From Patescibacteria group bacterium (GTDB lineage: Bacteria > Patescibacteriota > Microgenomatia > UBA8517): a stretch of 64,000 nt of DNA. The stretch covers positions 2,879 to 66,878 of the forward strand of contig DASSIE010000010.1 of assembly GCA_035692185.1 (NCBI GenBank). Reading direction: 5' to 3'. Below the pieces are notes generated by a model. The model saw nothing but the letters and a program-made list of their open reading frames with translations, ran no database searches and was not told the origin of the DNA. How positions within the stretch are numbered: the stretch's first letter is position 1; each line of letters begins with the position of its first letter. Below are positions 19,139 to 56,509 of this stretch, in pieces. The translations under genes and the position numbers were made by a program.

Positions 19139-19895
19139 AGCTGAAACCTTTATTGTCAAAACCCTCACGGGTGTTAAAAATACACTCGATCAAATTCGTT
19201 ACCCATACGAAATTATATGTGTCGTTGATGGCAAAATCGACAAAACTTTTGAGAAAGCTACGAAATTTGCCGGTTTATATCCAAGAAAAATAAAGGTTAT
19301 TGGTTACAAAAAGAACATGGGCAAAGGTAACGCTGTTAAATTTGGCATGGCCAGGGCAAAAGGAAATATAATAGGGTTTATTGACGCTGGGGTTGAACTT
19401 AATCCAAACGGCATATCTATGTTACTTGAACATTTTGAATGGTATAGTGCAGACATTGTAGTGGGGTCAAAGAGGCACGCCGCATCAAAAATATATTACC
19501 CTTGGTACAGAAAAGTAATGTCCTTTGGCTATCAGGTCATCGTTGGGATATTGTTTGGTCTTAAGGTGAAAGATACACAAGTTGGCATGAAATTTTTTAA
19601 GAAAGAAGTTGTAAAAAAAGTATTGCCAAGACTTTTGGTTAAAGCATTTGCTTTTGACATAGAAATGCTATCAGTTGCAAATTATTTAGGTTATAAACGG
19701 ATTTATGAAGCCCCGGTTGAGCTCAAAATGAAGTTTTCAAATGCCTCGACAATTATGTCTAAAGGTTTTTTAAAGACTGTTTTATCGGTTTTTATAGATA
19801 CGTTGGCAGTATTCTATCGCTTGCACATCCTTCATTATTACGATTACAAAAACAGAAAGAATTGGATTATCCCAAAATATTTAATTCTGAAATAG
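19080..19895 (+). CDS. Dpm1/Alg5-like GT2 polyprenol-phosphate glycosyltransferase
   Basis: LISVVIPAYKAE...MGKGNAVKFGMARAKGNIIGFIDAG...KDTQVGMKFFKKEV (TQ.G.K motif of Dpm1/Alg5/GtrB type). Overlaps the flippase 3' end. Confidence 0.65.
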   Translation: MYMKPEPKTNLISVVIPAYKAETFIVKTLTGVKNTLDQIRYPYEIICVVDGKIDKTFEKATKFAGLYPRKIKVIGYKKNMGKGNAVKFGMARAKGNIIGFIDAGVELNPNGISMLLEHFEWYSADIVVGSKRHAASKIYYPWYRKVMSFGYQVIVGILFGLKVKDTQVGMKFFKKEVVKKVLPRLLVKAFAFDIEMLSVANYLGYKRIYEAPVELKMKFSNASTIMSKGFLKTVLSVFIDTLAVFYRLHILHYYDYKNRKNWIIPKYLILK

Positions 19896-20621
19896 TCCGA
19901 CTATTAAGTTTCCAAAAGGTAATTTAAGCATCATTTCCAATCTACACAAAATTGCTGAAAGTTTTTTGTTAAAAAATAGGAAAGAGAAAAGATTAAATGA
20001 ACTAAATAAAATTGGCTCAAACCTTTGAATCATAAATATATTTTGTAAATTTTCCTTACAAAATTTGGCAAGATGTTGTTCTCCGTCAAAATGAGGGAAA
20101 ATTGTAAACTTATCTAAGATATTCTCAATTAATAACCAGGGGCTTTTATAATTTGGCGTAATTATACAAACAAAGCCATTTGGCTTAAGAAATTTGTGTA
20201 GTCCGGCAACTAGCTTTTTAGCATCCGTTATTTTTAAATGCTCTATTACATCAATTGAAATAATTAGATCAAATTTTTCTTTAATTTTAATTTTTGAAAT
20301 TTCTCTAAGATCGGCATTTATAAGTTTGACATTTTTAATTCTTTTTTGTTTTAACTTTGTTTTAAGGAACCTTAATGCTTGATCGTTATAATCTAGCCCT
20401 GTAATAGCCTTTAGTTTTTTAGCATAATTCAGTTCAAAATTTCCTGACCCAGTTCCCAAATCTAAGATATTGTTGGGTTTTGTTAATTTTAATATTTCAT
20501 CAATAATAATTAACTTATTGTTGTGCCAATTAGCTTGGAGAAAGTTCTTACTTCTAATCGCCTTATACTGGTAATCTGGTGAAATTCCCAATTTTTTTTC
20601 TACAATAATCTCTTTTTTCAT
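19881..20621 (-). CDS. Class I SAM-dependent methyltransferase
   Basis: Motif I ILDLGTGSGNF, acidic residue after the beta-2 strand (GLDYNDQAL), motif post-II IISIDVIEHL. Confidence 0.6.
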   Translation of the reverse strand: MKKEIIVEKKLGISPDYQYKAIRSKNFLQANWHNNKLIIIDEILKLTKPNNILDLGTGSGNFELNYAKKLKAITGLDYNDQALRFLKTKLKQKRIKNVKLINADLREISKIKIKEKFDLIISIDVIEHLKITDAKKLVAGLHKFLKPNGFVCIITPNYKSPWLLIENILDKFTIFPHFDGEQHLAKFCKENLQNIFMIQRFEPILFSSFNLFSFLFFNKKLSAILCRLEMMLKLPFGNLIVGLFQN

Positions 20622-20650
20622 TTTGATTAAACAATAGTAACATATACAAT

Positions 20651-24556: not shown

Positions 24557-24586
24557 TCATTACTTCATATGTTATTTTAATATCCA

Positions 24587-26625: not shown

Positions 26626-29082
26626 ATGCCTAAAAATAAAAAAAATGTATTAGTAACAGGGTCGGGTGGTTTAATTGGATCTGAGTCAGTGCATTTTTTT
26701 TGCGAAAAAGGATTTAATGTTATAGGAATCGACAATAATATGAGGGAGTATTATTTCGGACAAGAGGCAAGTACGAAAGGTAATGTTAAACAAATAGTTG
26801 ATACATACAAAAATTATAAACATTTTAATTGTGATATAAGGGACTCTGAAAATATTGAAGAAATATTTAAAACTTATAATTTTGATTTAATTATTCATAC
26901 AGCTGCGCAACCATCACATGATTGGGCCGCGAGGGAACCCCAGACTGACTTCAGTGTTAACGCAAACGGGACACTTAACCTGCTCGAGAATTTTAGAAAA
27001 TATTCTCCAAAAGCAGTTTTTATTTATACTTCAACTAATAAAGTTTATGGTGACACACCAAACAAATTGCCACTAATTGAACTAAAAACTAGATATGAGA
27101 TTGAATCAAGTCATAAATATAAAAATGGAATTGATGAATCAATGTCGATCGACAATAGCACTCATTCGTTGTTTGGTGTGTCAAAAGCTTCAGCTGATTT
27201 AATGGTTCAGGAGTACGGGAAATATTTTGGTTTATTTACTGGAGTTTTTAGGGGTGGGTGTCTTACAGGTTCTCGACATGCTGGAACGCAACTCCATGGA
27301 TTTTTGTCGTACTTAATTAAAAGTATTGTTACAGGCAAAAAATATACAATATTTGGTTACAAAGGAAAACAAGTTCGGGATAACATTCATTCACACGACT
27401 TGGTAAACGCTTTTTATCATTTTTATTTAAAACCCAGGATTGGTGAAGTCTATAATATTGGAGGATCAAGATACTCTAACGTCTCGATGTTGGAGGCAAT
27501 TGATAAAATAGAAAAAGTTACAGGCAAAAAAGCCAATGTAGAATATGTTGATGAAAACAGAATAGGAGACCATATTTGGTATGTTTCTTCAGTAAAAAAA
27601 TTTCAATCGCACTATCCAGAATGGAAGTATGAATACGATATAGATGCAACCATTTGGGATATTTGTAAAAATAGTGAATTTGCCAAAGATTTAATTTCAT
27701 TTTCAATTGCAAGGGATTTAGATTATTGGAGAGATAAAAATTGGTATTTTCATAATGCCTTAAAGGATATTTTTAAAACTTTTATTCCAGAGGATTCTAA
27801 AGTGCTTCAAGTTGGGTATGGTTTGGGTGACATATTAGCATCACTTTTTCCAAAAAATGCTTTAAGTGTTGATGACGATCCAAATATAATTATCAGTTCA
27901 ACTAAAAGATATCCCCATATTAGATTTCAGAATTTAGATATCGCCAAAACAAACATAAAAGAAAAATTTGATTATGTGATATTTCCAAACTCAATTGAGC
28001 ACATGTTTGATGTACAAACTGTTTTAGAGAAAGTAAAGAGTAGCCTTCATAAAGATTCAAGAATAATTATCACGTCTGTAAATCCTCGCTGGCAACAGCT
28101 TTTTTCCATATTAGAGAAATTCAAACTTAAAAGACCTGAGGCTCCAAAAAATTGGTTAAGACTTGAAGATCTGGTTAATATTGTTGAAATTTCTGGCTAT
28201 GAAATAGTTAATACAGGCTTTAAAGTTCTTTTACCTACGCATATACCACTTATTAGCAATTGGGTTAATAAGTTTAACTCACGTTTTTGTGTTGAGCAGT
28301 ATTTGGTTGCAAAGTCGAAGATCAAAAGTAAGGCAAAACCACTTACTTGTTCGGTAATAATACCTTGCTTTAACGAGGAGGAAAATATTAAGAAATGTAT
28401 TAATTCCGTGCCGAAGATGGGCAAGAGAACCGAAATAATTGTAGTTGACGACGGGTCAACAGATAAGACTTCAAGTGTTGTTAAAAATTTGATGAAGAAA
28501 AATAAAAATTTAAGATTAATATCATATAAACCAAATAAAGGGAAAGGTTATGCAGTAAAGCAGGGTTTTGATGGTGCCAAAGGGGATGTGGTAATGATTT
28601 TGGATGCTGATATGGCAGTACCTGTATCGGAGTTGCCGAGGTTTTTCAATTTATTAGAGTCTAAAGAAGCTGGTTTTGTAAATGGCACACGTTTAATTTA
28701 TCCAATGGAAGATCAGGCAATGCGGCAATTAAACTTAATTGGAAATCTTGTTTTTGGATGGATATTCTCATGGGTATTAAATCAAAGAATAACAGACACT
28801 TTATGTGGGACCAAAGCATTGCTTAAAAAGGATTATTTAAAAATTAAAATGGGTGGAGAATCATGGGGTGACTTCGACCTATTATTCGGCGCTGCAGAAA
28901 ACAAACTTAAAATCGTAGACATGCCTGTTCACTATATGAGGAGAGTGGCAGGTAAGTCAAAAATGAAAGCATTTCAGCATGGCTTGGTACTAGCTAAAAT
29001 GTGTTTCGTAGGTTGGTGGCGTTTAAAAGCGTCTCCATTATTTCGTAACACGAAAAGAGATGTGAGAAAACGGGTAAAATAA
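26626..29082 (+). CDS. Tri-domain fusion: N-terminal NDP-sugar epimerase-like SDR domain, central class-I-MTase-like domain, C-terminal Dpm1-like GT2 polyprenol-phosphate glycosyltransferase
   Basis: Residues 1-~340: [12 protein letters not shown]...STNKVYGD, resembling CDP-paratose 2-epimerase-type SDRs, but the YxxxK Tyr is replaced ([10 protein letters not shown]). Residues ~380-540: [12 protein letters not shown]...[14 protein letters not shown] (MTase-like fold). Residues ~560-818: [14 protein letters not shown]...[12 protein letters not shown]...[29 protein letters not shown]...[10 protein letters not shown] (Dpm1/ArnC-like). Confidence 0.6.
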
Positions 29083-29592
29083 AGGAGTCTCTACAGGTTC
29101 AACTTCATATTTAAGTTTGTTCTTAACAAATATTTTTTTCCATTGATCAGGACGTCTAAAAGTAAACGGAATGCGCATAAACGGGTTATGAATTTTATTT
29201 AAGATGTAATCAGATATTGTTCCAATTAATGTTGGTTGGACCTCAAAGATTAGAACCTGCTTTGATACTCTTAAGGCGTCAAGGATTAATTTTTCCTGGA
29301 TAGTGTATGGAATATGATGAAGAACATCATTAAACATTGCACTTTTAAACTCATTTCTTTTGAAAGGTAAGGAATCCTCCTTTTTAATTAGTTTAAACGC
29401 GATTTTGTTTGTGAGATATTTTAAGGTATCGCATCCATATATCTTTAAATCGAAATCCTCCGCTATCTGCTTACTCACAACTCCATTTCCGCAACCAACA
29501 TCTACGACCTTTTCGTTTGATTTTAGCCACCTTTGATAAGCCTTAATGATTAACTTACCTCGTATTTTTGATGTGTAATCAGCGAGTGCCAT
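29038..29592 (-). CDS. Class I SAM-dependent methyltransferase
   Basis: [14 protein letters not shown] motif I, FNDVLHHI post-II. 184 aa. 3' end overlaps the convergent tri-domain gene by 45 nt. Confidence 0.55.
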
Positions 29593-47715: not shown

Positions 47716-47933
47716 TTTATTGGATTTTATTAATAATTATTATTATTTTTACAAAATATAAAGTTGCTAGTGGGACTCTCTTTCAAGCAGGTTTAATAAT
47801 GATGCTAGTTGGAGCTTTTTTTGATATTTTTAAACTAACTGATATTTCAGAAATGTTGTTAAGTGCGGCATTAATTCTTTGGGTTGTTGGAATTGTCGGA
47901 ACCTGTATAGATCTATATAAACATAAATTATGA
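47712..47933 (+). CDS. Small hydrophobic membrane protein (73 aa), unknown
   Basis: Two to three predicted TM helices. Translationally coupled (ATGA) between two giant paralogs. Confidence 0.3.
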   Translation: MIYWILLIIIIIFTKYKVASGTLFQAGLIMMLVGAFFDIFKLTDISEMLLSAALILWVVGIVGTCIDLYKHKL

Positions 47934-50683
47934 TTAAGCGTGATACTGTTTTTCTGATGTTGATTTTGATCTTTGTCTTTTTTAATTTATTTTTGCCATT
48001 TCCACATATTGCATCCGATCTTCACCTTAGTTTTAAAGATCAACTTTTATCCCAATTTTCCATTCCTTCAGCTTGGACATCTAGTGGTTCTTCTGGTCTT
48101 GGACAATCTGCTTCTCTTTTACTTTGGAATTGGCCAATAACATTTTTGTTTGGGGCTTTTGGAAAATTAGGAATGTCCCACCAATTTCTGCTTAAAATTT
48201 TTGGTTTCCTTCCGATTATTTTACTTGGTATTTTTTCACTTAATAAATTTTTTGAAAAAATAAAAATTTCTGAAAATTCAAAACTTGTCGCGAAAGTGTT
48301 TTATATGACAACTACATATTTTCTACTTTTAGTTGATGGTGGACAATTATCAATCGCCCTTTGTTATGCATGGTTTCCTTTTTGCTACATTAAGTTTATT
48401 GAATGTGTTGATGGTAATATATCTGACAAAATCGTCGCTGCTTTGTCTATAACCATTTTAGGATTTTTGGATATTAGATTTATATATGTACTATTAATAC
48501 TAATATTCCTTCATTTTATATTTAACTTAGTTTTTTTGTCATTCAAGGAATGGAGTTCACATATTGGTAAATGGTTCAATGCCATTTTTGCAATTGGAAT
48601 AATCGGTATCACCATTAATTTTTATTGGATTTTGCCGATTATTTTATCAAGGTCAACAGACGCTTCGTTGTTAAATATTCGTGAGTCTCAAACCCATTTT
48701 TTAAATTTTACTCAGTTTAAAAATGCAATCTCCCTCCTTCAGCCACATTGGTATAGAAATATTTTTGGAGTGATATCTGCATTTAAAAAAGAGTTTTTAT
48801 TTATACCACTTCTGGCCTTTATGTCACTATTTATGTATAGGAAAAACAAAAGAGTGTGGTTTTGGACCCTGATAGCAATAATTTCAGTTTTTTTAACAAA
48901 AGGAGATAACCCTCCATTTTCAGGAATTTATCCGTGGTTATTTACACATATACCTGGATTTTTCCTATTCCGCGATTCAACAAAGTTTTTCTTTTTAGTT
49001 TCCCTTTCGTATGCAGTTTTAATTTCGTATACAGTTGATAGTTTAATAAAAAGATTACCAAAAATTAAAATTATTTTTCCTGTTTTATTAATTTTATTTT
49101 TCCTTTTTTTAACGAGACCTATTTTCCTTGGTCAGATGACAGGAATATTTTCAAAGCCTTCATATACGGATGAGTATTTATCTCTTGGAAATAAACTTGA
49201 GAAGGACACATCATTTGGAAGAGTATTGTGGCTACCTCTCAAAGCCCCAATGGGTTTTGCATCGTTAACGCATTCAGGAATTGAAGCTAATAGATTGGAA
49301 TCAATTCGCCCATTTGCTATTGGTACGGTTGGGGCATATGAAACGCAAAACTTTATTAGGGAAGCAGACTACATGGGTGAGCTTTTTAGTATTGCTGGGA
49401 TAAAATATATTACATATCCATATCTAGATCCAAAGCGTGACGATATGTTAAAAGAAAAAGTAGATTATTATGGTACATTCTCAAATCAAATTAAAAGTTT
49501 ACTTTGGGTTGGCGACACAGTTTCCGATTTTCCAATATCAGTTTTTAAAACAAAAGAAAATGAGGGAAAAATTTTCCTTTCCAAAAATACGTACTATGTG
49601 GTCGGTTCTGATAGATTGTATTCAGATATTGTAAAATTAGGCGCGAAATTTAAAGATAACGCTTTAGTATTTGTTGAAGAAGGCAAAAATTTAATAAATA
49701 AAATTGTAGAAACACCAGGTGCAAATATAATTGTTTATGATAAAAATCTTACAGATTTAGCACTATCCTTCACCCAAACCAGCAACTTTATTTCACCAAG
49801 TTCAATTCTAGGATTTTCGCCAGGCAAAACTGGCTGGTGGAAAAGGGAAGCAATCGACTTGGTATGGACTCGCGATTTTTTGCAACAAAAATATGGCATT
49901 GATAATTTAGATTTTGATTACGGGGAAGGGTGGGCGATTGCTGAAGGAGATAGGGAATTAACAATTACCAATAACCAATTTACAAAAGGGAAAATACTTT
50001 ACGCAAGAGTTATGGAAAGCAGTAGAGGCGGGAACATTGAATTTTGGCAGGGGAACAATAAACTTGGGGAAGTAAATACAAAAATTGAAACTCCCGAGAA
50101 AGTTGTAATAAAACTAACAGGAAACGTTACCTTGCCAGATAAATTTTATAGATATGATAAAGCAAACTTTCATTGGGTGAAAATTGGAGAATTGTTGAAT
50201 AATTCTAATTTAACAATAAACACAAAAGGTGACATAAACATACTTAACACTTTAGCTGTAATTTCAAAAGAACAGGAAAACAATATTTTCCAAAGTGTTG
50301 ATAAATTAGTAAACGACAAAAAAATAGTAGAATGGGATAGTCTAACAATTAGCGATAAGAAAAAATTGCTGTTTGGCGCAGACACACCAATCGTTTCATA
50401 CACAACACTTTCACAAACGCATTACAAAATTAAGGTCGAAGGATTAAAAAATCCGACCACTTTATTTTTTTCAGAGACCTTTGATAGTAATTGGGAGTTG
50501 AATAATCAAAAAGGATACAAACTGTACAGTTTTATAAATGGTTTTTGGATTGACCATAATGGGGAATACGATCTTTATTTTTCCCCGCAAAAATATGTGC
50601 TTCCAGGGCTCATTGTAAGCATGATAACTCTAGCTTCTTGTATAATGTTTCTTATATGGAAAAGATCAAAGAAATCTTCCTAA
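47930..50683 (+). CDS. Giant GT-C-like membrane protein (YfhO/AftD-like architecture), paralog 3 of 3
   Basis: 917 aa. Polytopic N-domain, large soluble domain, C-terminal SNWELNNQKGYKLYSFINGFWIDHNGEYDLYF, then the final TM LIVSMITLASCIMFLIW. Same C-terminal module as the other two. Confidence 0.4.
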   Translation: MIKRDTVFLMLILIFVFFNLFLPFPHIASDLHLSFKDQLLSQFSIPSAWTSSGSSGLGQSASLLLWNWPITFLFGAFGKLGMSHQFLLKIFGFLPIILLGIFSLNKFFEKIKISENSKLVAKVFYMTTTYFLLLVDGGQLSIALCYAWFPFCYIKFIECVDGNISDKIVAALSITILGFLDIRFIYVLLILIFLHFIFNLVFLSFKEWSSHIGKWFNAIFAIGIIGITINFYWILPIILSRSTDASLLNIRESQTHFLNFTQFKNAISLLQPHWYRNIFGVISAFKKEFLFIPLLAFMSLFMYRKNKRVWFWTLIAIISVFLTKGDNPPFSGIYPWLFTHIPGFFLFRDSTKFFFLVSLSYAVLISYTVDSLIKRLPKIKIIFPVLLILFFLFLTRPIFLGQMTGIFSKPSYTDEYLSLGNKLEKDTSFGRVLWLPLKAPMGFASLTHSGIEANRLESIRPFAIGTVGAYETQNFIREADYMGELFSIAGIKYITYPYLDPKRDDMLKEKVDYYGTFSNQIKSLLWVGDTVSDFPISVFKTKENEGKIFLSKNTYYVVGSDRLYSDIVKLGAKFKDNALVFVEEGKNLINKIVETPGANIIVYDKNLTDLALSFTQTSNFISPSSILGFSPGKTGWWKREAIDLVWTRDFLQQKYGIDNLDFDYGEGWAIAEGDRELTITNNQFTKGKILYARVMESSRGGNIEFWQGNNKLGEVNTKIETPEKVVIKLTGNVTLPDKFYRYDKANFHWVKIGELLNNSNLTINTKGDINILNTLAVISKEQENNIFQSVDKLVNDKKIVEWDSLTISDKKKLLFGADTPIVSYTTLSQTHYKIKVEGLKNPTTLFFSETFDSNWELNNQKGYKLYSFINGFWIDHNGEYDLYFSPQKYVLPGLIVSMITLASCIMFLIWKRSKKSS

Positions 50684-51921
50684 CAGCTACTTTTAGACAG
50701 TCAAGCCTAACGACTTTTGGAACAATTGCCAATGGCTTCCTAGGTGCAATTTTTTACATTCTTGTTGCAAGAATGTTGGGGCCAGCACAATTTGGACTTT
50801 TTAGTATAGCTACACTTGTTTTAAACATGGTGGCAGATATTGGGGATTTGGGAACAAATACTGGACTTGTTAGGTTTGTAGGTGGAAATAGAGTTAACAA
50901 CCCGGAAAAAGCAAATAGATTTTTAAAACTTGGGTTAGAGGTAAAAATATTGGCATCTATAGTTATTGGAGTAGTTGGGGTCTTGGCGTCTTCCTGGATT
51001 GCAGTTTTCTTATTTAAAAAACCCGAACTTACTAATCTTTTACAGTTTGCATTTATCGGTGTTTCTGGTTCGTTACTTTTTTCTTTTATTTTGACAACAC
51101 TGCAAGCATATGAACGTTTTTGGTCGTGGAGTTTAATTCAAGTAATATCCAATAGCGGAAGAGTGATATTAATAATATTTTTTTATAATTTTTTAACGGT
51201 TTCACCAATTACTTCAATGGGGATTTATATAGTTATACCACTATTAAGTTTTATAGCGGGTCTTTTCGTGACTTCAACACGATTTTTTAAGGTAAGAGGG
51301 GAGACTTCAGAAATTAAAGAATTTTTTCATTACAACAAATGGGTGGCCCTATTTACCTTGATTGCAGCTTTCTCTGCACGTCTAGATAGTTTTCTAACTG
51401 CAAGATACTTAACTTTTTTTGAGATTGGAATTTATGCGGCTGCCACACGTGTTACACAAATAGTTCCTCAGATTGTTGGAGCAATTTCAACAGTTGTGGC
51501 ACCAAAAATGGCAGGAATTGGTACAAAAAGTGAATTCATAGAATATATGAAAAAGACTCAACTTTTTGTTTTTTCAATCGCACTTCTTGGGATACTGTCA
51601 ATTCCAGTAATCTCCTATTTAATTCCAATCATTTTTGGCAGTGCTTATTCGGCTTCAATACCGATATTTATAGTATTACTTTTTGCAATGTTATTTTTAT
51701 TAATCTCAATACCAGTACACACTGCAGTTTTTTATTATTTTTCCTATCCTAAACTTTTTGTCTGGATAAGCACCGCCCATTTAATTATAGTGGCTCTAAG
51801 TGGGTATTTCTTTATCCCCACATATGGGGTTATGGCGATAGCATACAGCGTATTGTTTGCTGGTATAGTTGATTTTGTGGTTCCTGGTATTTGGGTACTT
51901 AACAAATTACGAAAGGCATAG
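50638..51921 (+). CDS. wzx: Wzx-type oligosaccharide/polysaccharide flippase (MOP superfamily), intact
   Basis: FGTIANGFLGAIFYILVARMLGPAQFGLFSIATLVLNMVADIGDLGTNTGLVRF. About 12 TM helices. The true start is possibly MEKIKEIF at 50656. Confidence 0.6.
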   Translation: MYNVSYMEKIKEIFLTATFRQSSLTTFGTIANGFLGAIFYILVARMLGPAQFGLFSIATLVLNMVADIGDLGTNTGLVRFVGGNRVNNPEKANRFLKLGLEVKILASIVIGVVGVLASSWIAVFLFKKPELTNLLQFAFIGVSGSLLFSFILTTLQAYERFWSWSLIQVISNSGRVILIIFFYNFLTVSPITSMGIYIVIPLLSFIAGLFVTSTRFFKVRGETSEIKEFFHYNKWVALFTLIAAFSARLDSFLTARYLTFFEIGIYAAATRVTQIVPQIVGAISTVVAPKMAGIGTKSEFIEYMKKTQLFVFSIALLGILSIPVISYLIPIIFGSAYSASIPIFIVLLFAMLFLLISIPVHTAVFYYFSYPKLFVWISTAHLIIVALSGYFFIPTYGVMAIAYSVLFAGIVDFVVPGIWVLNKLRKA

Positions 51922-51931
51922 ATTTCAAAAA

Positions 51932-52639
51932 ATGAGTATATATGCACATTGTCTGGTTAAAAACGAGGAAAACTTCATATGGTATTCTGTTGCCTCAGTA
52001 GTTGAATATGTCGATAAAGTTATGATTTGGGACAACGGGAGCTCAGACAACACAATCAAAGTAATTGAGGCATTAAAAAACAGATGGCCATCAAAGATTG
52101 ATTTTAAAAAGTTTTCAGGAGAGGTATCTGAAGCAAGGCAGCAAATGATTGGTGTTACAGATGCAGATTGGTTTATCATTTTGGACGGCGATGAAGTATG
52201 GTGGAATGAATCGATTAAAAAACTTGTTGCGGTTATAAACGAGGATGGTAAAAATCTTGATTCGATTGTTGTTCCATTCAAGAATTTGACACGAGACATG
52301 TTTCATTTTCAAGATGAAGGTAAAGGCAAATACAAAATCGATGAAAAAGAAGGTTTTTTGACAATAAAAGCAATAAATATGAAGATTGAAAATCTTCATA
52401 TAGGCAACGAATATCCATTTGAGGGTTATTTTGGTAAAAACAATATCCCTATACAGAACTTAATTTCAAAAAGAAGGGTTTTTTTAGAAACTCCTTATCT
52501 ACATCTAACGCATTTAAGGAGGTCAAGCAAAAAGTCTGAAAAAATCAAAAAACGAAATGGTCTTAGTTTTCCGCTAGATTTTTATTATCCGGAAGTTTTT
52601 TTTAGGCCCCGCCCAGATTTTATATTAACTCCATGGTAG
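51932..52639 (+). CDS. GT-A fold (GT2-like) glycosyltransferase
   Basis: MSIYAHCLVKNEENFIW...VMIWDNGSSDNT...ILDGDE (DXD). Start moved to the ATG after the flippase stop. Confidence 0.45.
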   Translation: MSIYAHCLVKNEENFIWYSVASVVEYVDKVMIWDNGSSDNTIKVIEALKNRWPSKIDFKKFSGEVSEARQQMIGVTDADWFIILDGDEVWWNESIKKLVAVINEDGKNLDSIVVPFKNLTRDMFHFQDEGKGKYKIDEKEGFLTIKAINMKIENLHIGNEYPFEGYFGKNNIPIQNLISKRRVFLETPYLHLTHLRRSSKKSEKIKKRNGLSFPLDFYYPEVFFRPRPDFILTPW

Positions 52640-53403
52640 AAAAACAGAAAGTTTGGGAGACTAATAATTATTATGATAAGGCTCATATTAGTAGTTTGGA
52701 TCTAAACAATCCCGGGATAAGACTTCTTTTAAATTTATCAAAAAAAAGTCGTAAAATTCTTGATTTAGGCTGTGGTGACGGATCAAGGTTGTCATTGCTT
52801 TCAAATGTGGGAACGGGCGTTGATGTGAGTGTGAAAGCCATTAGTATTGCAAAGAAAAGATACCCTAAATGTAAATTCATAATTGGAAATTTAGAAAACC
52901 TTACTTTTCCAAACGATTCATTTGATTTACTGTATTCTGCGTATGTTTTTGAACATATAGACAATGTTGAAAAGGTTATAAATGAAATAAAACGAGTATT
53001 AACACCATCTGGAAATTTAGTAATAATATGTCCGAATTATGGTGCTCCCAATAGAGCGTCCCCACCTTTTACAGGATCTAGAATTAATAAATTTATTTCA
53101 GGATTTTTGAATGATTTACTTAATGTTTTTAGACACGTCAAGACTTTGAACTGGGTAAAAGTAACTCCAATAAAAGGTGAATACAAATCAGATTTTGATG
53201 TAACAATTGAGCCGTATTCATTGAGTCTGTCTAAATATTTAGAAAGTAATGGATTTTTGGTGGAAAAGAATTTTCAAACCTGGGAGTATGAATTAGAAGC
53301 TGCCAACATTCTTCAAAAAATATTTAGATTTTTGGGACTAGTTGGCATTTATCCATTCTATTACTGGTCTCCACATATCGTTATTCAAGCTAAAAAGATA
53401 TAA
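52633..53403 (+). CDS. Class I SAM-dependent methyltransferase
   Basis: ILDLGCGDGSRLS motif I, FDLLYSAYVFEHI post-II, LTPSGNLVIICP. Confidence 0.55.
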   Translation: MVEKQKVWETNNYYDKAHISSLDLNNPGIRLLLNLSKKSRKILDLGCGDGSRLSLLSNVGTGVDVSVKAISIAKKRYPKCKFIIGNLENLTFPNDSFDLLYSAYVFEHIDNVEKVINEIKRVLTPSGNLVIICPNYGAPNRASPPFTGSRINKFISGFLNDLLNVFRHVKTLNWVKVTPIKGEYKSDFDVTIEPYSLSLSKYLESNGFLVEKNFQTWEYELEAANILQKIFRFLGLVGIYPFYYWSPHIVIQAKKI

Positions 53404-53429: not shown

Positions 53430-54086
53430 ATGCACATAGGAGAAACTACACTTGAAATTATGAGTAAGGCTAGTTGGTATAACAACTGGTTAATGCGTCA
53501 GATATCCGGATATCTAAATGGGGACATTTTGGAAGTCGGAGCTGGTATGGGCAACTTCACTTCAAAGCTATCAATTTATGGAAAAGTTACTGCTATTGAC
53601 TATGACGCAACTTACAAAAACGCAAATTATGGAGATATTGAAAACGGAAAGTATTATTTTGGCAAAAACAAATTGTTTGACACTATTGTTTGTATGAACG
53701 TTTTGGAACATATTAACAATGATAAAAAAGCATTAGAAAACATGTTTTCACTTCTAAATAAAGATGGCAAATTAATTTTGTTAGTTCCCGCACATCAGTG
53801 GGCATATGGCGAAATGGATAAAGGCCTTGGGCACTTCCGCAGGTATTCTAGAGGCGAAGTAGTTAGCAAACTTCAAGATTCCAAATTCGAGATTCTGAAT
53901 TCTCGTTATCTCAATTGGCTTGGTTTAATTGGATGGTTCTTTAATGCAAAAATTTTAAGAAGCGAGATTATTCCAGAAGGACAGCTTGGATTGTTTGATA
54001 AATTGGCTAGACCATTTTTATTATTGGAAGAATTTATTAACCCCCCATTTGGATTATCAGTTTTGGCAATCGGAGTAAAGAAATAA
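53430..54086 (+). CDS. Class I SAM-dependent methyltransferase
   Basis: ILEVGAGMGNFTSKL motif I, FDTIVCMNVLEHI, LNKDGKLILLVP. Confidence 0.55.
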   Translation: MHIGETTLEIMSKASWYNNWLMRQISGYLNGDILEVGAGMGNFTSKLSIYGKVTAIDYDATYKNANYGDIENGKYYFGKNKLFDTIVCMNVLEHINNDKKALENMFSLLNKDGKLILLVPAHQWAYGEMDKGLGHFRRYSRGEVVSKLQDSKFEILNSRYLNWLGLIGWFFNAKILRSEIIPEGQLGLFDKLARPFLLLEEFINPPFGLSVLAIGVKK

Positions 54087-54087
54087 T

Positions 54088-54792
54088 ATGTTACTTTCAA
54101 TAATTATCCCCGTTTTTAATGAAGAAGATACTGTAAGTGAAATACTAGAAAAAGTTATGAAGGTAAAACTTCCAAAGAAATTGCAAAGGGAAGTGATAGT
54201 AGTTAATGACCGCTCAACTGATAATAGTTTAAAGAAATTAAATGGAATTAGAGGCATAAAGGTTTTAAATCATAAAACTAATCAAGGTAAAGGTGCGGCG
54301 ATTAGAACAGGTATCCAAAATTCAACCGGTGACATTTTATTAATTCAGGATGCAGATCTTGAATATGACCCAAACGACTATCCAAGGCTTTTGAAGCCAA
54401 TTTTAGATGGTAAAACTAAAGTAGTATACGGGACCAGACTTAAAAATTATCCGATAAAGATTTTTGGCAGAAAACATACGCCTTTCTTAACTCATTTTTT
54501 AGGAAATAAATTTCTCTCTCTTATCACAAGAATACTTTATAGAAGTAAGGTTACCGATATGGAAACATGCTATAAGGTTTTTAATAAAGAATTAGTTAAA
54601 AATATTGTAATTAAATCCAATAGATTTGAGTTTGAGCCGGAAATAACTGCAAAAATTTTAAAAGCTGGTCATAAAATTCACGAAGTATCGATTAATGTAA
54701 TTCCAAGAGGTTATGATGATGGAAAGAAAATTACCTGGAGAGATGGATTTATAGCAATTTGGACTTTGGTTAAGTATAGATTCACAGATTAG
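54088..54792 (+). CDS. Dpm1/ArnC-like GT2 polyprenol-phosphate glycosyltransferase
   Basis: LSIIIPVFNEEDTVSEILEKV...VIVVNDRSTDNS...NQGKGAAIRTGIQNSTGDILLIQDADLEYDP...TDMETCYKVF. Confidence 0.65.
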   Translation: MLLSIIIPVFNEEDTVSEILEKVMKVKLPKKLQREVIVVNDRSTDNSLKKLNGIRGIKVLNHKTNQGKGAAIRTGIQNSTGDILLIQDADLEYDPNDYPRLLKPILDGKTKVVYGTRLKNYPIKIFGRKHTPFLTHFLGNKFLSLITRILYRSKVTDMETCYKVFNKELVKNIVIKSNRFEFEPEITAKILKAGHKIHEVSINVIPRGYDDGKKITWRDGFIAIWTLVKYRFTD

Positions 54793-54795
54793 AAA

Positions 54796-55740
54796 ATGAA
54801 AAAAATTGCAATTCTTAGTTTTTATAATAATCTTCTTGATCGCGGAGTTGAAAGCTGGTCAAAATTGGTTAAAGAGAAACTGAGGGAGTCGTTTGATGTA
54901 GAAATATTTAGTGGCAAAAGCTTTGGAAATAAAATTGATTGGGAAAATAAAAATTATCTATATTGGAGATTTTTACTATTAAAACACTCACTCCAGACTC
55001 TTTCAAAATGGAACAAATACGATATTATCATTCCAGCTAATGGTACAGTCCAAACCTTAATTTGTAGATTGATTACTTGGTTTAAGAGAAAACCAATGAT
55101 TGTTTTTGGGCACTCTGGTCCTGGAGCTGACGACAAATGGAACTTACTTTGTTCCCCTAATGTTTTTGTCGCATTTTCGTCTCATCAAAAAGAGTGGGCA
55201 GAAAAATTTAAACTTCCGTGGACAAAAATAGTTCTTATTCCACATGCAATTGACTTGAAAAGATTTACTCCAGCCAAGGTAAAACCAAATCAGAAAATTG
55301 TACTTTGTGTGGCGGCAAATGAACCAAGTAAAAGAGTGGATCTAGTCAAAGAAGCAGTAGATTTAATACCTGGAGCAAAATTTATGGCGGTCGGAAAAGG
55401 AAACGAAATTGAAACCTCATTTGGCAAAATGCCTGAGGTTTACAAAAAAGCTGATGTTTTTTGTTTTGTACCCCAACCCTGGGAAGCATTTGGCTTGGTT
55501 TTTTTGGAGGCAATGGCAACCAACCTTCCAATTGTGACAATTAATGATCCCGTGCGTAGAGAAATAGTGGGAGATGCAGGAATTTTTGTTGATCATCCTG
55601 AGGATCAACAGGAACTTTCTAGTGCAATTGAAAAAGCGCTAAATTCAGATTGGCGCAATATCCCCAGAAAACAAGCTGAAATGTTTTCTTGGGACACTGT
55701 AAAATCAAAGTACGAGAATCTCTTTAATAATGTAAAGTAG
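54796..55740 (+). CDS. GT4 family glycosyltransferase (short)
   Basis: FCFVPQPWEAFGLVFLEAMATNLPIVTINDP. 314 aa. Confidence 0.55.
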   Translation: MKKIAILSFYNNLLDRGVESWSKLVKEKLRESFDVEIFSGKSFGNKIDWENKNYLYWRFLLLKHSLQTLSKWNKYDIIIPANGTVQTLICRLITWFKRKPMIVFGHSGPGADDKWNLLCSPNVFVAFSSHQKEWAEKFKLPWTKIVLIPHAIDLKRFTPAKVKPNQKIVLCVAANEPSKRVDLVKEAVDLIPGAKFMAVGKGNEIETSFGKMPEVYKKADVFCFVPQPWEAFGLVFLEAMATNLPIVTINDPVRREIVGDAGIFVDHPEDQQELSSAIEKALNSDWRNIPRKQAEMFSWDTVKSKYENLFNNVK

Positions 55741-55750
55741 TAAATAAATT

Positions 55751-56509
55751 ATGAATTTATCAAAGTTTTATAACGACAAAATTAGATTGGGATATCATCC
55801 AATCGCCTCAGTAAATTTAAAAAGAGGTTTTTTAAAATCTCTAGTTTCTTATGATGATAGATTTGTAACAGTTATAAAATATCTTGAGAAGTTAATTGCT
55901 GGTCTTTATAAAAAAGAAAAAATAAAAGTTTTAGATATTGGAATCGGTGACGGGGTTTACGAAAGACTGTTGTCTGCTGAATCTTTGCATAAAGTTGATC
56001 TTTATGGGATTGATATCAGTAAAAATCAGATTAAGAGAGCAGAAAAATTTATTAAAGAAGGTAAAGTGGTAGATCTTGATAACCAAAATATTCCATATAA
56101 ATCGAATACTTTCGATTTGATAATAATATCCGAGATTTTGGAGCATGTATTTTATCCTGAAAATATATTGAATGAAGCTTACAGAGTTTTAAGAAGTGGT
56201 GGAAAAATGCTAATCACTTTCCCAAATTCAGGAGCATTGCAGTTAAGACTTTCTTTATTTTTAACCGGCAGGTCGCCACTTCTAAATTATACAAAAAATA
56301 AGGAACATATTAGGTTTTTTGATAAAGGAGATGTTTTGACAGCTTTTATAACAAAACCAAAAGTCTTATATCATCAAGGATTAAGTTCATTTGTTTTTGA
56401 TAAGTGGGATTTTCCAGTTAAAATTATAACGCCAAGAATTGCAGAAATTATCGGTAACATTTGGATGCCAAGATTGGCACTTGGAAACCTTTTAATACTT
56501 AAAAAATAG
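55751..56509 (+). CDS. Class I SAM-dependent methyltransferase
   Basis: VLDIGIGDGVYE motif I, FDLIIISEILEHV, LRSGGKMLITFP. Confidence 0.55.
   Translation: MNLSKFYNDKIRLGYHPIASVNLKRGFLKSLVSYDDRFVTVIKYLEKLIAGLYKKEKIKVLDIGIGDGVYERLLSAESLHKVDLYGIDISKNQIKRAEKFIKEGKVVDLDNQNIPYKSNTFDLIIISEILEHVFYPENILNEAYRVLRSGGKMLITFPNSGALQLRLSLFLTGRSPLLNYTKNKEHIRFFDKGDVLTAFITKPKVLYHQGLSSFVFDKWDFPVKIITPRIAEIIGNIWMPRLALGNLLILKK

What the first reader, a model, noticed from the sequence alone, without database searches (positions are those of the whole stretch)
19881..56509. Exceptional methyltransferase density: about 10 SAM-MTase domains plus an FkbM-type MTase within one glycan locus
Stand-alone class I MTases sit at 19881(-), 29038(-), 35736, 43481, 52633, 53430 and 55751. 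An FkbM-family MTase sits at 41006. MTase domains are fused to GT2 (41881..43479) and inside the tri-domain protein (26626..29082). FkbM-type and GT-fused MTases are typical of O-methylated sugars (as in methylated polysaccharides and glycopeptidolipids). This number suggests multiply O-methylated, and given the two acetyltransferases O-acetylated, sugars, hence a hydrophobic glycan surface.
Basis: partly seen in the sequence, partly recalled or inferred. Interest (0 to 1): 0.55.

Follow-up and report, generated by a model that had tools for sequence, protein, structure and literature searches.

The report
Methyltransferase-rich surface-glycan locus in a Patescibacterium
An uncultured, small-genome bacterium (Patescibacteria/CPR) carries a sugar-polymer gene cluster of more than 70 kb in which ten genes bear methyl-transfer domains; the cluster is shared with its relatives and probably makes methylated cell-surface sugars, which is a rich but recognisable example of a known kind of locus.

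Summary
All ten ORFs or domains at the stated coordinates are SAM-methyltransferase domains: 7 stand-alone class I, 1 FkbM, 1 GT2-MTase fusion and 1 epimerase-MTase-GT2 tri-domain. That is 10 of 31 genes in 36.6 kb. The total is ten including FkbM, not ten plus FkbM.

The window comes from a Microgenomates-type Patescibacteria MAG. It is packed end to end with glycan genes: 11 Leloir glycosyltransferase domains in the region, about 17 GT-C-like membrane proteins, two Wzx flippases (one broken), a Wzy and two O-acetyltransferase-like proteins.

MTase density is about 4-fold above the average for 80 related CPR loci, but it equals that of the closest relative. The MTases are old, divergent paralogs. 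Most have 46-78% orthologs in the same gene order in other Patescibacteria.

No sequence or fold search assigns a substrate. The case for glycan methylation rests on three things: fusions to glycosyltransferases, overlapping or nearly abutting reading frames, and conserved synteny. O-methylation specifically and a "hydrophobic surface" remain inference. The methyl groups may be spread over more than one glycan.

Verdict: a real and conserved locus, a rich new member of a known kind. Interest is moderate to low.

The parts
19881..20621 (-). M1, stand-alone class I SAM methyltransferase (246 aa)
   Evidence: Pfam Methyltransf_31/25/12/23/11, 55-71 bits. Motif I is ILDLGTGSG. No TM segment. Together with the membrane protein at 20651-22069 it is an insertion relative to L002-L005. 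The family has 29 cluster representatives at E<=1e-30. Of 10 longer homologs scanned, 5 are GT2-MT, 1 GT4-MT and 1 YfhO-MT fusions.
26626..29082 (+). M10, tri-domain protein: CDP-tyvelose-2-epimerase-like SDR (8-350), class I MTase (about 385-530) and a GT2 resembling polyprenyl-phosphate glycosyltransferases (576-791)
   Evidence: Pfam. PDB sequence hits: 9rl0/1orr CDP-tyvelose 2-epimerase at E 2e-38, and DPM synthase 5mlz and ArnC for the C-terminus. AglJ and dolichyl-P-hexose transferase are the best NCBIfam GT hits, below cutoff. The full three-domain architecture occurs in only 4 of 80 species loci, L002-L005, at 58-70% identity. Motif I ([10 protein letters not shown]) is invariant in all five copies, and the MT domain is 53-58% identical.
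29038..29592 (-). M2, short class I MTase (184 aa), convergent with the tri-domain gene and overlapping it by 45 nt
   Evidence: Pfam scores are just above gathering, about 29 bits. Motif I is VVDVGCGNG. A 55% ortholog lies at the same position in L002. In L099 an MT of 185 aa lies next to the 64% ortholog of 29579-31351.
35736..36494 (+). M3, stand-alone class I MTase (252 aa)
   Evidence: Pfam Methyltransf_23/11, 67-71 bits. Motif I is VIDIGCGDG. The best relative is 41% identical, in the WWE3 locus L038 beside two other MTases and the epimerase. It overlaps the convergent UDP-GlcNAc 2-epimerase gene by 4 nt.
41006..41884 (+). M8, FkbM-family MTase (292 aa) with an N-terminal hydrophobic helix
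   Evidence: PF05050 74 bits. TIGR01444 90 bits against a cutoff of 37.7. RfbT PF05575 is below cutoff, 22.9 against 27.9. About 15 full-length orthologs are at least 46% identical, and at least 7 appear to share contigs with fusion orthologs (matching contig lengths). A 53% ortholog lies directly upstream of the fusion in L099. It overlaps the fusion gene by 4 nt.
41881..43479 (+). M9, GT2 - membrane helices - class I MTase - C-terminal helix fusion (532 aa)
   Evidence: Pfam GT2 at 8-180 plus Methyltransf_11 at 346-437. More than 120 full-length orthologs at 51-70% identity, with Patescibacteria/Daviesbacteria names where a source gives one. The AF2 model has pLDDT 91: GT-A 7-230, long helices 236-337, Rossmann MT 344-480, helix 496-515. 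Hydrophobic segments lie at about 255, 286 and 501. The GT-A domain is nearest to ppGalNAc-T and mycobacterial GlfT2 by Foldseek.
43481..44194 (+). M4, DUF268-type class I MTase (237 aa)
   Evidence: PF03269 55.7 bits plus Methyltransf_23/11. Orthologs immediately downstream of the fusion: 66% in L085 and 47% in L083.
52633..53403 (+). M5, stand-alone class I MTase (256 aa)
   Evidence: Methyltransf_11 78 bits. A 48% full-length ortholog follows the GT2 ortholog in L097. It overlaps the upstream GT2 gene by 7 nt.
53430..54086 (+). M6, stand-alone class I MTase, NodS-like (218 aa)
   Evidence: Methyltransf_23 49 bits, NodS 32 bits. A 48% full-length ortholog sits at the same position in Daviesbacteria L098.
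55751..56509 (+). M7, stand-alone class I MTase (252 aa)
34336..34890 (+). Hexapeptide-repeat acyltransferase, EpsC/CysE/WcaB-like
   Evidence: Pfam Hexapep. NCBIfam EpsC 99.6 bits (cutoff 150), plus cysE and WcaB.
60766..61362 (+). Hexapeptide-repeat acyltransferase, WcaF/WbbJ-like
   Evidence: Pfam Hexapep 58 bits. NCBIfam WcaF family 102 bits (cutoff 192). Orthologs are 58-68% identical in L097 and L098.
36491..37588 (-). UDP-GlcNAc 2-epimerase-like (WecB family)
   Evidence: PF02350 140 bits. TIGR00236 158 bits (cutoff 210). Conserved at the head of the fusion module in L083 and L099.
37602..39818 (+). Polytopic membrane protein, GT-C AftD-like (738 aa)
   Evidence: PF11847 28.6 bits (cutoff 26), E 4.5e-7. 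About 10 TM segments. Orthologs are 36-61% identical in L083, L084 and L099.
39812..41002 (+). GT4 glycosyltransferase of the fusion module
   Evidence: PF00534 91 bits. Orthologs are 54-59% identical next to the fusion in L082-L084 and L099.
44170..47715 (+). Large polytopic membrane protein (1181 aa), paralog of 37602; its counterparts in relatives score as GT-C_AftD
   Evidence: No direct Pfam hit. About 10 TM segments. It is 28.5% identical to the 37602 product. Counterparts of 958-1165 aa downstream of the fusion in L083, L097 and L099 carry PF11847 hits. Homologs are 55% identical in L085 and 35% in L084.
47930..50683 (+). Large polytopic membrane protein (917 aa), unknown family, conserved in the module
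   Evidence: No Pfam hit. About 8 TM segments. Orthologs are 36-42% identical in L082, L084, L097, L098 and L099.
50638..51921 (+). Wzx-type flippase (intact)
   Evidence: PF13440/PF01943 69 bits. Orthologs are 33-46% identical in L084 and L097-L099.
17831..19138 (+). Second Wzx-type flippase, interrupted by an in-frame TAA at 18509-18511
   Evidence: PF01943 on the N-terminal half. The translation shows a single in-frame stop. Relatives have single ORFs of 417-432 aa.
54088..54792 (+). Short GT2 resembling polyprenyl-phosphate sugar synthases (AglJ/PpgS/ArnC-like)
   Evidence: PF00535 112 bits. NCBIfam AglJ 102 bits, PpgS 66 bits, ArnC 54 bits, all below cutoffs. A 54% ortholog is present in L098.
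51869..52639 (+). GT2 directly upstream of M5
   Evidence: PF00535. Orthologs are 42-48% identical in L097-L099.
54796..55740 (+). GT4 between M6/GT2 and M7
   Evidence: PF00534 71 bits. Orthologs are 35-37% identical in L097 and L098.
56513..57238 (+). GT2 directly downstream of M7
   Evidence: PF00535 90 bits. Orthologs are 56-61% identical in L097 and L098.
57235..58563 (+). GT-C (PMT_2/ArnT-like) membrane glycosyltransferase
   Evidence: PF13231 29 bits. 7 TM segments. A 44% ortholog is present in L098.
8821..14825 (+). Four tandem PMT_2/PMT-type GT-C membrane glycosyltransferases
   Evidence: PF13231 30-63 bits. Orthologs are 48-56% identical in L005.
62754..64000 (+). Wzy_C (O-antigen polymerase/ligase-like) gene that runs off the window end
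   Evidence: The open frame reaches the window end. The same gene on Logan contig L096 is 464 aa with a PF04932 hit and is followed by another PMT_2 protein.

Best explanation
The ten MTase domains are tailoring enzymes of a very large cell-envelope glycan locus (more than 70 kb) that is conserved in the lineage. The host is a Microgenomates-type Patescibacterium.

Proposed mechanism; only the gene content and the conservation are shown, every biochemical step is inferred:
1. Nucleotide-sugar enzymes supply donors. These are the SDR epimerases/dehydratases, a NUDIX protein and a WecB-like 2-epimerase.
2. Eleven Leloir GT2/GT4 domains build lipid-linked oligosaccharides on the cytoplasmic face of the membrane.
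3. The soluble or membrane-tethered SAM-dependent MTases, together with two LbH acetyltransferases, modify specific sugars there. This must happen before export, because SAM is cytoplasmic.
4. In two cases the MTase is fused to the GT that presumably adds the sugar it methylates.
5. Wzx flippases export the product and a Wzy-like protein polymerises or ligates it.
6. Many GT-C enzymes (PMT_2/ArnT-like, PIG-V-like, AftD-like) add further residues outside the membrane, from polyprenyl-phosphate sugars made by DPM1/AglJ/ArnC-like GT2s. One of these GT2s is the C-terminal domain of the tri-domain protein.

The high MTase count reflects several conserved sub-modules, and possibly more than one glycan. 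It is not the result of recent gene duplication.
For: - All ten domains pass Pfam thresholds and keep motif I.
- The stand-alone MTases have no TM segment or signal-like segment, apart from an N-terminal anchor in FkbM.
- Two are covalent GT2-MT fusions. The fusion family has more than 120 full-length orthologs and a confident two-domain model.
- M1-family homologs are fused to GT2 (5 cases), GT4 (1) and YfhO (1) among 10 scanned.
- The genes overlap or abut: 4-nt overlaps between FkbM and the fusion and between GT2 56513 and the PMT_2 gene, and gaps of 1-26 nt elsewhere.
- Synteny with identities:
  - L099 reproduces window 29-52 kb: M2-like, 29579 (64%), GT4 (60%), WecB (48%), GT-C (61%), GT4 (54%), FkbM (53%), fusion (63%), GT-C, Wzx, GT2.
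  - L098 and L097 reproduce 47.9-62 kb, including M5 (48%), M6 (48%) and M7 (48-55%).
  - L085 and L083 keep DUF268 M4 (66% and 47%) right after the fusion.
  - L002 keeps the tri-domain (70%) plus M2 (55%), followed by four consecutive MTases.
- The MTases share only core-level similarity with each other.
- No NCBIfam equivalog for RNA, protein, quinone, biotin or tellurite MTases is approached.
- Every one of the 56 genes in the window is a glycan-pathway family or a polytopic membrane protein.
- Experimental precedent: generic class I MTases embedded in a glycan cluster 4-O-methylate sugars in T. forsythia (PMC6120980).
Against: - No MTase shows specific similarity to a characterised sugar O-methyltransferase.
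- MftM is only a sub-threshold hit, 36 bits against a cutoff of 200.
- The window contains no initiating phosphoglycosyltransferase, so the acceptor and the product are unknown.
- One of the two Wzx genes carries an in-frame stop.
- M1 and M3 lack demonstrated positional orthologs.
- No expression or chemical data exist for this organism.
Confidence: 0.7

Rival explanations
1. Some of the MTases, especially those fused to or adjacent to GTs, are chain-terminating cappers. They would methylate the non-reducing terminal sugar to stop polymerisation and set chain length, as WbdD, Klebsiella O7 ORF6 or Geobacillus WsaE do.
Against: Known terminators work with ABC-transporter (Wzm/Wzt) export. The window has no ABC transporter and no kinase domain, and it has Wzx and Wzy genes instead. 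Ten MTases are far more than capping needs. The fusion has membrane helices between its domains, not a coiled-coil ruler.
Confidence: 0.12
2. A substantial share of the MTases act on non-hydroxyl targets within the glycan pathway. Candidates are N-methylation of amino sugars or phosphoethanolamine substituents, methyl-esterification of uronic acids (as archaeal AglP does, recalled from memory), or methylation of the polyprenyl-linked donor. If so, 'O-methyl sugars' would be the wrong chemistry.
For: The best solved-structure relatives of M3, M5 and M7 include phosphoethanolamine and phospholipid N-methyltransferases. NCBIfam gives sub-threshold PmtA hits for M3 and M5. A WecB-like epimerase implies ManNAc-type sugars. 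The tri-domain MTase sits between an NDP-sugar epimerase and a polyprenyl-P transferase, which is compatible with methylating a donor.
Against: The window has no aminotransferase, no UDP-sugar dehydrogenase and no phosphoethanolamine transferase. The similarities to N-MTases are confined to the SAM-binding core and score no better than those to O-MTases such as RebM and UbiG.
Confidence: 0.15
3. The MTases are unrelated housekeeping or small-molecule enzymes (rRNA, tRNA, protein, quinone, biotin) that merely lie inside the locus.
For: Automatic names given by sources include 'UbiE', 'MetW' and 'UbiG'. Pfam lists weak co-hits to PrmA, RrnaAD, GidB and TehB.
Against: All such NCBIfam hits are far below curated cutoffs, for example ksgA at 25 bits against 171, UbiG at 57 against 103 and BioC at 61 against 185. 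The MTases are fused to GTs, their reading frames overlap or nearly abut those of GTs, and they stay syntenic with GTs across genomes.
Confidence: 0.03
4. The locus makes an intracellular polymethylated polysaccharide, like the mycobacterial 6-O-methylglucose lipopolysaccharide or the 3-O-methylmannose polysaccharide, and not a surface glycan.
For: The ratio of MTases to GTs is high, 10 to 11 Leloir domains. PMPS clusters pair GTs with dedicated O-MTases (title and abstract of PMC9883506 as listed; details recalled from memory).
Against: Flippases, a Wzy_C protein and about 17 polytopic GT-C-like membrane proteins dominate the locus, which points to export and extracytoplasmic assembly. No PMPS-type hydrolase or acyltransferase was seen.
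Confidence: 0.04

Closest known systems
Tannerella forsythia general protein O-glycosylation gene cluster (27 kb; MtfJ, MtfO, MtfY) - PMC6120980
   Same: A polycistronic glycan cluster in which generic class I MTases are interleaved with GT genes and methylate specific sugars (4-O-Me) of an S-layer-linked glycan. The MTases are mutually dissimilar.
   Different: It has three MTases in 27 kb, against ten in 36.6 kb here. It comes from a different phylum. It has no GT-MT fusions and no array of GT-C enzymes. The product there is chemically defined; here it is unknown. That paper also shows that the number of MTases exceeds the number of methyl groups (3 for 2).
GT-methyltransferase chain terminators of ABC-transporter-dependent O-antigens and S-layer glycans: E. 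coli/Klebsiella WbdD, K. pneumoniae O7 ORF6 (PMC11231755), G. stearothermophilus WsaE (from memory)
   Same: An MTase domain is covalently linked to GT2 modules in one polypeptide, and the methylated target is the glycan being built.
   Different: Those proteins use a coiled-coil ruler, often a kinase domain, and Wzm/Wzt export. Here the linker is a set of hydrophobic membrane helices, there is no kinase and no ABC transporter, and Wzx and Wzy are present.
Mycobacterial arabinogalactan/LAM logic (GlfT2 polymerising GT2, then AftD-type GT-C using polyprenyl-P-sugar) and three-component extracytoplasmic glycosylation systems (PMC11127046)
   Same: The fusion's GT-A domain is structurally close to GlfT2. 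It is followed by large GT-C proteins whose counterparts in relatives score as AftD family. DPM1/ArnC/AglJ-like GT2s together with many GT-C enzymes fit the pattern of lipid-phosphate-sugar donor, flippase and GT-C.
   Different: No GlfT2- or AftD-level sequence identity. No UDP-galactopyranose mutase or DPA pathway genes were seen. No MATE- or GtrA-type flippase was identified. An MTase fused to the GT2 has no counterpart in the mycobacterial pathway as far as I know (from memory).
Mycobacterial sugar O-methyltransferases: GPL Rmt/Mtf enzymes, and the MGLP and MMP MTases (from memory; PMC9883506 was seen only as a title and abstract)
   Same: Several dedicated SAM MTases are clustered with GTs to produce multiply O-methylated glycans.
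   Different: No specific homology could be tested with the available tools. Those clusters carry 1-4 MTases. MGLP and MMP are cytoplasmic, whereas this locus is built for export.
Mycofactocin glycosylation pair MftF (GT2) and MftM (oligosaccharide 2-O-MTase) - NCBIfam TIGR03965 / NF041255
   Same: The two halves of the fusion give sub-threshold hits to MftF (66 bits) and MftM (36 bits) respectively. That pair is a GT2 that extends a glycan plus an MTase that methylates it.
   Different: The scores are far below the equivalog cutoffs (280 and 200). The window contains no mycofactocin genes. In mycobacteria the two activities are separate proteins.

Membership tests
Class I (Rossmann-fold) SAM-dependent methyltransferases | Profile match above the curated threshold to class I MTase families | tested here: met
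   Nine domains pass Pfam gathering scores for Methyltransf_11/12/23/25/31. The lowest is 29038-29592 at about 29 bits against cutoffs of 21-27.
Class I (Rossmann-fold) SAM-dependent methyltransferases | Glycine-rich SAM-binding motif I (E/D-x-G-x-G-x-G or a variant) | tested here: met
   The canonical motif is present in M1, M2, M3, M5, M6, M7 and M9. M4 has the variant ILDAGSYGS and M10 has VLQVGYGLG, with Q in place of D/E; the M10 variant is invariant in all 5 tri-domain copies.
Class I (Rossmann-fold) SAM-dependent methyltransferases | Seven-stranded alpha/beta fold | tested here: met
FkbM family methyltransferases (PF05050 / TIGR01444) | Profile match above the curated cutoff | tested here: met
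   41006-41884 scores 74.1 bits on PF05050 (cutoff 22.7) and 90.4 bits on TIGR01444 (cutoff 37.7).
Vibrio cholerae RfbT-type O-antigen methyltransferase (PF05575) | Profile match above the gathering score | tested here: not met
   22.9 bits against a cutoff of 27.9 for 41006-41884. Some orthologs carry precomputed PF05575 hits.
WbdD-type chain terminators | MTase combined with a kinase and/or a coiled-coil ruler | tested here: not met
   No kinase domain appears in any ORF. The linker of the fusion consists of hydrophobic helices.
WbdD-type chain terminators | Operates with a Wzm/Wzt ABC transporter | tested here: not met
   No ABC-transporter family is present in the window. Wzx and Wzy_C are present instead.
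Characterised sugar O-methyltransferases (mycobacterial Rmt/Mtf, MeT1/MeT3, Rv3030; MftM; TylF/MycF type) | Specific sequence homology to a characterised member | tested here: inconclusive
Nucleic-acid / ribosomal-protein methyltransferases (RsmA/KsgA, RlmA, RlmD, Erm, PrmA, PrmC) | Equivalog-level profile match | tested here: not met
   The best scores are 20-44 bits against cutoffs of 171-458.
Quinone / biotin / tellurite small-molecule MTases (UbiE, UbiG, BioC, TehB, MetW) | Equivalog-level profile match | tested here: not met
   UbiG reaches at most 57.5 bits (cutoff 103), BioC at most 61 (185), MetW 65 (189.5) and TehB 45 (303).
Polyprenyl-phosphate glycosyltransferases (DPM1 / ArnC / GtrB / AglJ / PpgS) | Equivalog-level match for the GT2 domains of 26626-29082 and 54088-54792 | tested here: inconclusive
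   These families are the best-scoring ones: AglJ at 94 and 102 bits, and PDB DPMS 5mlz and ArnC at E 1e-12 to 1e-13. All are below the NCBIfam cutoffs of 325-529. This is a family-level resemblance only.
GT-C AftD family (PF11847) | Profile match above the gathering score | tested here: inconclusive
   37602-39818 scores 28.6 bits (cutoff 26), but no single stretch passes on its own. 44170-47715 and 47930-50683 have no hit. Counterpart proteins at the same position in L083, L097 and L099 do carry PF11847 hits.
Wzx/Wzy-dependent glycan assembly | Wzx flippase and Wzy-type polymerase/ligase present | tested here: met
   PF01943/PF13440 on 50638-51921 and on the split 17831-19138 gene. Wzy_C is on the gene that runs off the window end.
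Wzx/Wzy-dependent glycan assembly | Initiating phosphoglycosyltransferase (WecA/MraY-type PF00953 or WbaP-type PF02397) in the locus | tested here: not met
   Neither family is found in any of the window ORFs. It may be encoded elsewhere in the genome.

The most novel reading that the evidence does not exclude
This locus may encode a so-far undescribed, heavily methylated envelope polymer of CPR bacteria: a lipoglycan, secondary cell-wall glycan or S-layer glycan. The locus is more than 70 kb, roughly 6-7% of a genome of about 1 Mb, and it is conserved across Microgenomates. Its assembly logic would resemble that of arabinogalactan: a GlfT2-like polymerising GT2 that methylates its own product through a fused MTase, then export, then extensive extracytoplasmic decoration by ten or more GT-C enzymes fed by polyprenyl-phosphate sugars. 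One of those donors would be made, and perhaps methylated, by the epimerase-MTase-GT2 tri-domain enzyme. Such a glycan could be central to how these epibionts attach to hosts or evade phages.
Probability: 0.25. Interest if true: 0.6.

Novelty: new member of a known kind. Interest (0 to 1): 0.35.

Why it matters
The envelope chemistry of Patescibacteria/CPR is essentially unknown, because most of them are uncultured. A conserved locus that takes up several percent of a reduced genome, with ten MTase domains and about 17 GT-C-like proteins, indicates that a complex and probably methylated surface glycan matters to these organisms.

The locus also supplies concrete targets for biochemistry: the GT2-MTase fusion family, with more than 120 orthologs, and the rarer epimerase-MTase-GT2 protein.

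Methylated glycans are also recognised by innate-immune lectins and can block glycosidases or phage receptors. That makes the locus relevant to epibiont-host and phage interactions. As a genomic observation, though, it is an MTase-rich example of an ordinary class of locus, not a new kind of system.

Tried and rejected

2. Recent tandem duplication as the source of the count. Rejected: the ten domains share only core-level similarity.

3. A tri-domain protein widespread across CPR, including Saccharimonadales. This is what the 'residues matched 6-798' rows suggest. Rejected: a per-ORF check finds the three-domain architecture in only L002-L005. Only the stand-alone epimerase of about 350 aa is widespread.

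4. The fusion's GT2 as a GtrB/DPMS-type polyprenyl-phosphate sugar synthase. This was suggested by the membrane hairpin after the GT-A domain. Not supported: the nearest folds are ppGalNAc-T and GlfT2.

5. Three independent islands that occur separately in other genomes. Only partly true. L082-L084 show the fusion module on its own, but L099 shows window 29-52 kb as one block, and L097 and L098 show 44-62 kb as one block.

6. The metagenome-contig scan with the fusion gave just 10 loci, mostly short or distant.

7. The look-up of the 61826-62779 product failed, because the gene is called with a different start.

8. Literature searches for methylated glycans or glycan loci in CPR, Patescibacteria, Microgenomates or Saccharibacteria found nothing relevant.

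9. An Rfam scan of the window found no RNA elements.

Full report
**What is there**

The window is AT-rich, about 33% GC, and is filled end to end with genes. The largest intergenic gap is 214 nt. All ten ORFs or domains named in the finding exist at the stated coordinates. All pass Pfam gathering thresholds for class I SAM-dependent methyltransferase families or for FkbM:
- Seven stand-alone class I enzymes. I label them M1 19881-20621(-), M2 29038-29592(-), M3 35736-36494, M4 43481-44194 (DUF268-type), M5 52633-53403, M6 53430-54086 and M7 55751-56509.
- One FkbM enzyme, M8 41006-41884. It also passes TIGR01444.
- One GT2-MTase fusion, M9 41881-43479.
- One epimerase-MTase-GT2 protein, M10 26626-29082.

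All ten keep a glycine-rich SAM-binding motif. Pfam scans of every other ORF in the window found no further MTase. The correct count is therefore ten MTase domains including FkbM, in 10 of 31 genes over 36.6 kb. M2 is the weakest, at about 29 bits, but it is conserved.

**Where it comes from**

The tri-domain protein, the fusion, M7 and FkbM all have 100%-identical entries named 'MAG TPA... [Patescibacteria group bacterium]' on a 74.5-kb contig. They are also on Logan contigs from SRR25158199. The closest relatives of the tri-domain protein are a Patescibacteria MAG (70%), a Woesebacteria MAG (68%) and a Daviesbacteria MAG (61%). The organism is therefore a Microgenomates-type CPR bacterium. 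Rfam finds no RNA genes in the window.

**Context**

Every gene in the window is a glycan-pathway family or a polytopic membrane protein. Within the flagged region there are:
- four GT4 and seven GT2 domains;
- five large membrane proteins;
- one Wzx flippase;
- five nucleotide-sugar enzymes: two SDR epimerase/dehydratase-like proteins, a NUDIX protein resembling GDP-mannose mannosyl hydrolase, a classical SDR, and a WecB-like UDP-GlcNAc 2-epimerase;
- one hexapeptide acyltransferase.

Upstream lie four tandem PMT_2 GT-C genes, several weaker PMT-like membrane proteins, a GT87/MptA-like protein, a PIG-V-like GT-C and a second Wzx. Downstream lie more GT2 and GT4 genes, a PMT_2 GT-C, a WcaF-like acetyltransferase and a Wzy_C gene that runs off the window. 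The locus continues on both sides: two more membrane proteins of about 525 aa upstream, and Wzy_C plus another PMT_2 downstream. It therefore exceeds 70 kb. No initiating phosphoglycosyltransferase, ABC transporter, aminotransferase or kinase is present.

**Is the density more than chance?**

I used the ten window MTase domains as phmmer probes against ORFs of related loci.
- The 80 species-representative CPR loci anchored on the epimerase or tri-domain gene carry 0.67 MTase ORFs per 10 kb. That predicts 2.4 in 36.6 kb, with Poisson P(>=10) = 2e-4.
- The 15 loci anchored on orthologs of the fusion or of M7 carry 1.47 per 10 kb (expected 5.4, P = 0.05).
- The closest relative, L002, has 6 in 23 kb, which is the same density as the window.
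- L085 has four MTase domains in four consecutive genes.

The enrichment is real, but it characterises this lineage's locus, not this one genome.

**Origin of the count**

The ten domains resemble each other only in the SAM-binding core. They are old paralogs, not recent duplicates.

**Conservation (the finding's own refutation test)**

- The fusion has more than 120 full-length orthologs at 51-70% identity.
- M7 has about 85 at 42-68%.
- FkbM has about 15 at 46% or more, and at least seven of them appear to lie on the same contigs as fusion orthologs, judged by matching contig lengths.
- M1 has 29 cluster representatives at E<=1e-30.

Gene order is conserved too.
- L099 reproduces window 29-52 kb: an M2-like MT, the 29579 membrane protein (64%), GT4 (60%), WecB (48%), GT-C (61%), GT4 (54%), FkbM (53%), fusion (63%), a large GT-C, a large (851-aa) membrane protein, Wzx and GT2.
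- The Daviesbacteria locus L098 and the locus L097 reproduce 47.9-62 kb, including M5 (48%), M6 (48%) and M7 (48-55%) between the same GT2, GT4 and PMT_2 genes.
- DUF268 M4 follows the fusion in L085 (66%) and L083 (47%).
- L002-L005 share the upstream core: PMT_2 genes, GT2, GT4, PIG-V-like GT-C, Wzx, GT2, GT4, epimerases and the tri-domain. L002 adds M2 (55%) and four consecutive stand-alone MTases.
- M1 plus the membrane protein at 20651 is an insertion relative to L002-L005.
- The best match to M3 is 41%, in a WWE3 locus.

The 'not conserved in relatives' outcome is therefore refuted for at least eight of the ten.

**What the MTases act on**

The argument for glycan substrates is contextual but multi-pronged:
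- Two domains are covalently fused to GT2.
- Of ten longer homologs of M1, five are GT2-MT, one is GT4-MT and one is YfhO-MT.
- The reading frames overlap flanking GT genes or lie within 1-26 nt of them.
- Synteny with specific GTs is conserved.
- The stand-alone MTases have no TM segment or export signal, which fits methylation on the cytoplasmic face where SAM is available.

In Tannerella forsythia, similarly generic MTases inside a 27-kb glycosylation cluster were shown by knockout to 4-O-methylate two sugars. There, three MTases served two methyl groups (PMC6120980).

**The two fusions**

M9 models confidently (pLDDT 91, pTM 0.75). It has a GT-A domain (7-230), four long helices (236-337) of which two are hydrophobic enough to be membrane segments, a Rossmann MTase (344-480) and a C-terminal hydrophobic helix. 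Its GT-A domain is closest to ppGalNAc-transferases and to the polymerising galactofuranosyltransferase GlfT2. It is not close to DPMS or GtrB. That suggests it elongates a glycan rather than making a lipid-phosphate sugar. It lies in a conserved module: WecB, GT-C, GT4, then GT2 or FkbM, the fusion, then DUF268 or FkbM, a large GT-C, a membrane protein of about 900 aa, and Wzx.

M10 combines three domains. The first is a CDP-tyvelose-2-epimerase-like SDR (PDB 9rl0 and 1orr, E about 1e-38). The second is an MTase whose motif I has Q in place of D/E, invariant in all five copies. The third is a DPM1/ArnC/AglJ-like GT2. A per-ORF check shows that this architecture is rare: 4 of 80 species loci. 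The stand-alone epimerase, by contrast, is widespread.

**Mechanism proposed**

The inferred steps are marked as such in the Best explanation section. In outline:
1. Oligosaccharides are assembled on a lipid carrier in the cytoplasm by GT2 and GT4 enzymes.
2. They are methylated and acetylated there.
3. They are exported by Wzx and polymerised or ligated by the Wzy-like protein.
4. They are further glycosylated outside the membrane by GT-C enzymes, using polyprenyl-phosphate sugars.

The presence of two Wzx genes, several polyprenyl-P-sugar-synthase-like GT2s and about 17 GT-C-like proteins leaves open whether one glycan or several are made.

**Comparison with known systems**

The locus works like the methylating glycan clusters of T. 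forsythia, and like O-antigen and S-layer glycan systems that use GT-MT fusion enzymes (PMC11231755). Its GT-C-rich part resembles three-component extracytoplasmic glycosylation and mycobacterial arabinan logic (PMC11127046). It fails the membership tests for WbdD-type terminators: there is no kinase, no coiled coil and no ABC transporter. It cannot be filed with any characterised sugar O-MT family. Five literature searches found no description of CPR glycan loci or of methylated CPR glycans.

**Verdict**

This is a rich, conserved member of a known kind of locus in a poorly known phylum, of moderate to low interest.

Noticed in passing
window 17831-19138 (+), stop codon at 18509-18511: The Wzx-type flippase of the upstream core is split into 226-aa and 203-aa ORFs by a single in-frame TAA. 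Orthologs in L002-L005 are uninterrupted ORFs of 417-432 aa. It is either a genuine nonsense mutation (pseudogene) or an assembly or sequencing error.
   Followed up: partly
window 1-19000, plus 20651-22069, 29579-31351(-), 37602-39818, 44170-50683, 57235-58563 and 62754-64000: There are very many polytopic membrane proteins: about 17 that are GT-C-like or of unknown family. They include four tandem PMT_2 genes (8821-14825), a GT87/MptA-like protein, a PIG-V-like protein and an AftD-like protein. This is arguably more unusual for a genome of about 1 Mb than the MTase count. Several have no Pfam hit at all (2739-4631, 20651-22069, 29579-31351, 44170-47715, 47930-50683).
   Followed up: partly
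window 26626-29082; loci L002-L005: The epimerase-MTase-GT2 tri-domain architecture occurs in only 4 of the 80 best species-representative loci. The 'residues matched 6-798' rows for Saccharimonadales in the locus table are composites of neighbouring genes. The MTase motif I has Q in place of the usual D/E ([10 protein letters not shown]), invariant in all five copies.
   Followed up: yes
window 23179-24099 compared with L082 5797-6735, L083 9076-9999 and L084 7250-8158: This GT2 has 60-62% orthologs that sit inside the fusion module in relatives: directly next to the GT2-MTase fusion in L082 and L083, and two genes upstream of it in L084. In the window it lies about 17 kb upstream and FkbM occupies the corresponding slot, so a rearrangement within the locus has occurred.
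   Followed up: partly
window 19881-22069: MTase M1 and the adjacent divergent 472-aa membrane protein (7 TM segments, no Pfam hit) are absent from the otherwise syntenic core of L002-L005. There the GT2 (19080-like) is followed directly by the GT4 (22066-like) or by the tri-domain gene. The pair is a two-gene insertion.
   Followed up: partly
loci L005, L006, L010, L011, L013 and others (genome contigs records): Many records titled 'uncultured Gammaproteobacteria bacterium' carry Patescibacteria-type syntenic glycan loci. L005, for example, has the full core and the tri-domain at 58%. These MAGs are probably mislabelled taxonomically.
   Followed up: no
window 24086-25566: A NUDIX protein resembling GDP-mannose mannosyl hydrolase and an SDR whose best NCBIfam hit is GDP-L-fucose synthase (both below cutoff) sit together upstream of the tri-domain gene. 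This hints at a GDP-mannose-derived 6-deoxyhexose donor.
   Followed up: no
L082 14970-15302, L097 5038-5418, L098 409-744, L099 15870-16202, compared with window 47716-47929: Relatives encode a small ORF of 102-126 aa with no Pfam hit just after the large GT-C. The window has only a 214-nt non-coding gap at that position, which is the largest gap in the window.
   Followed up: no
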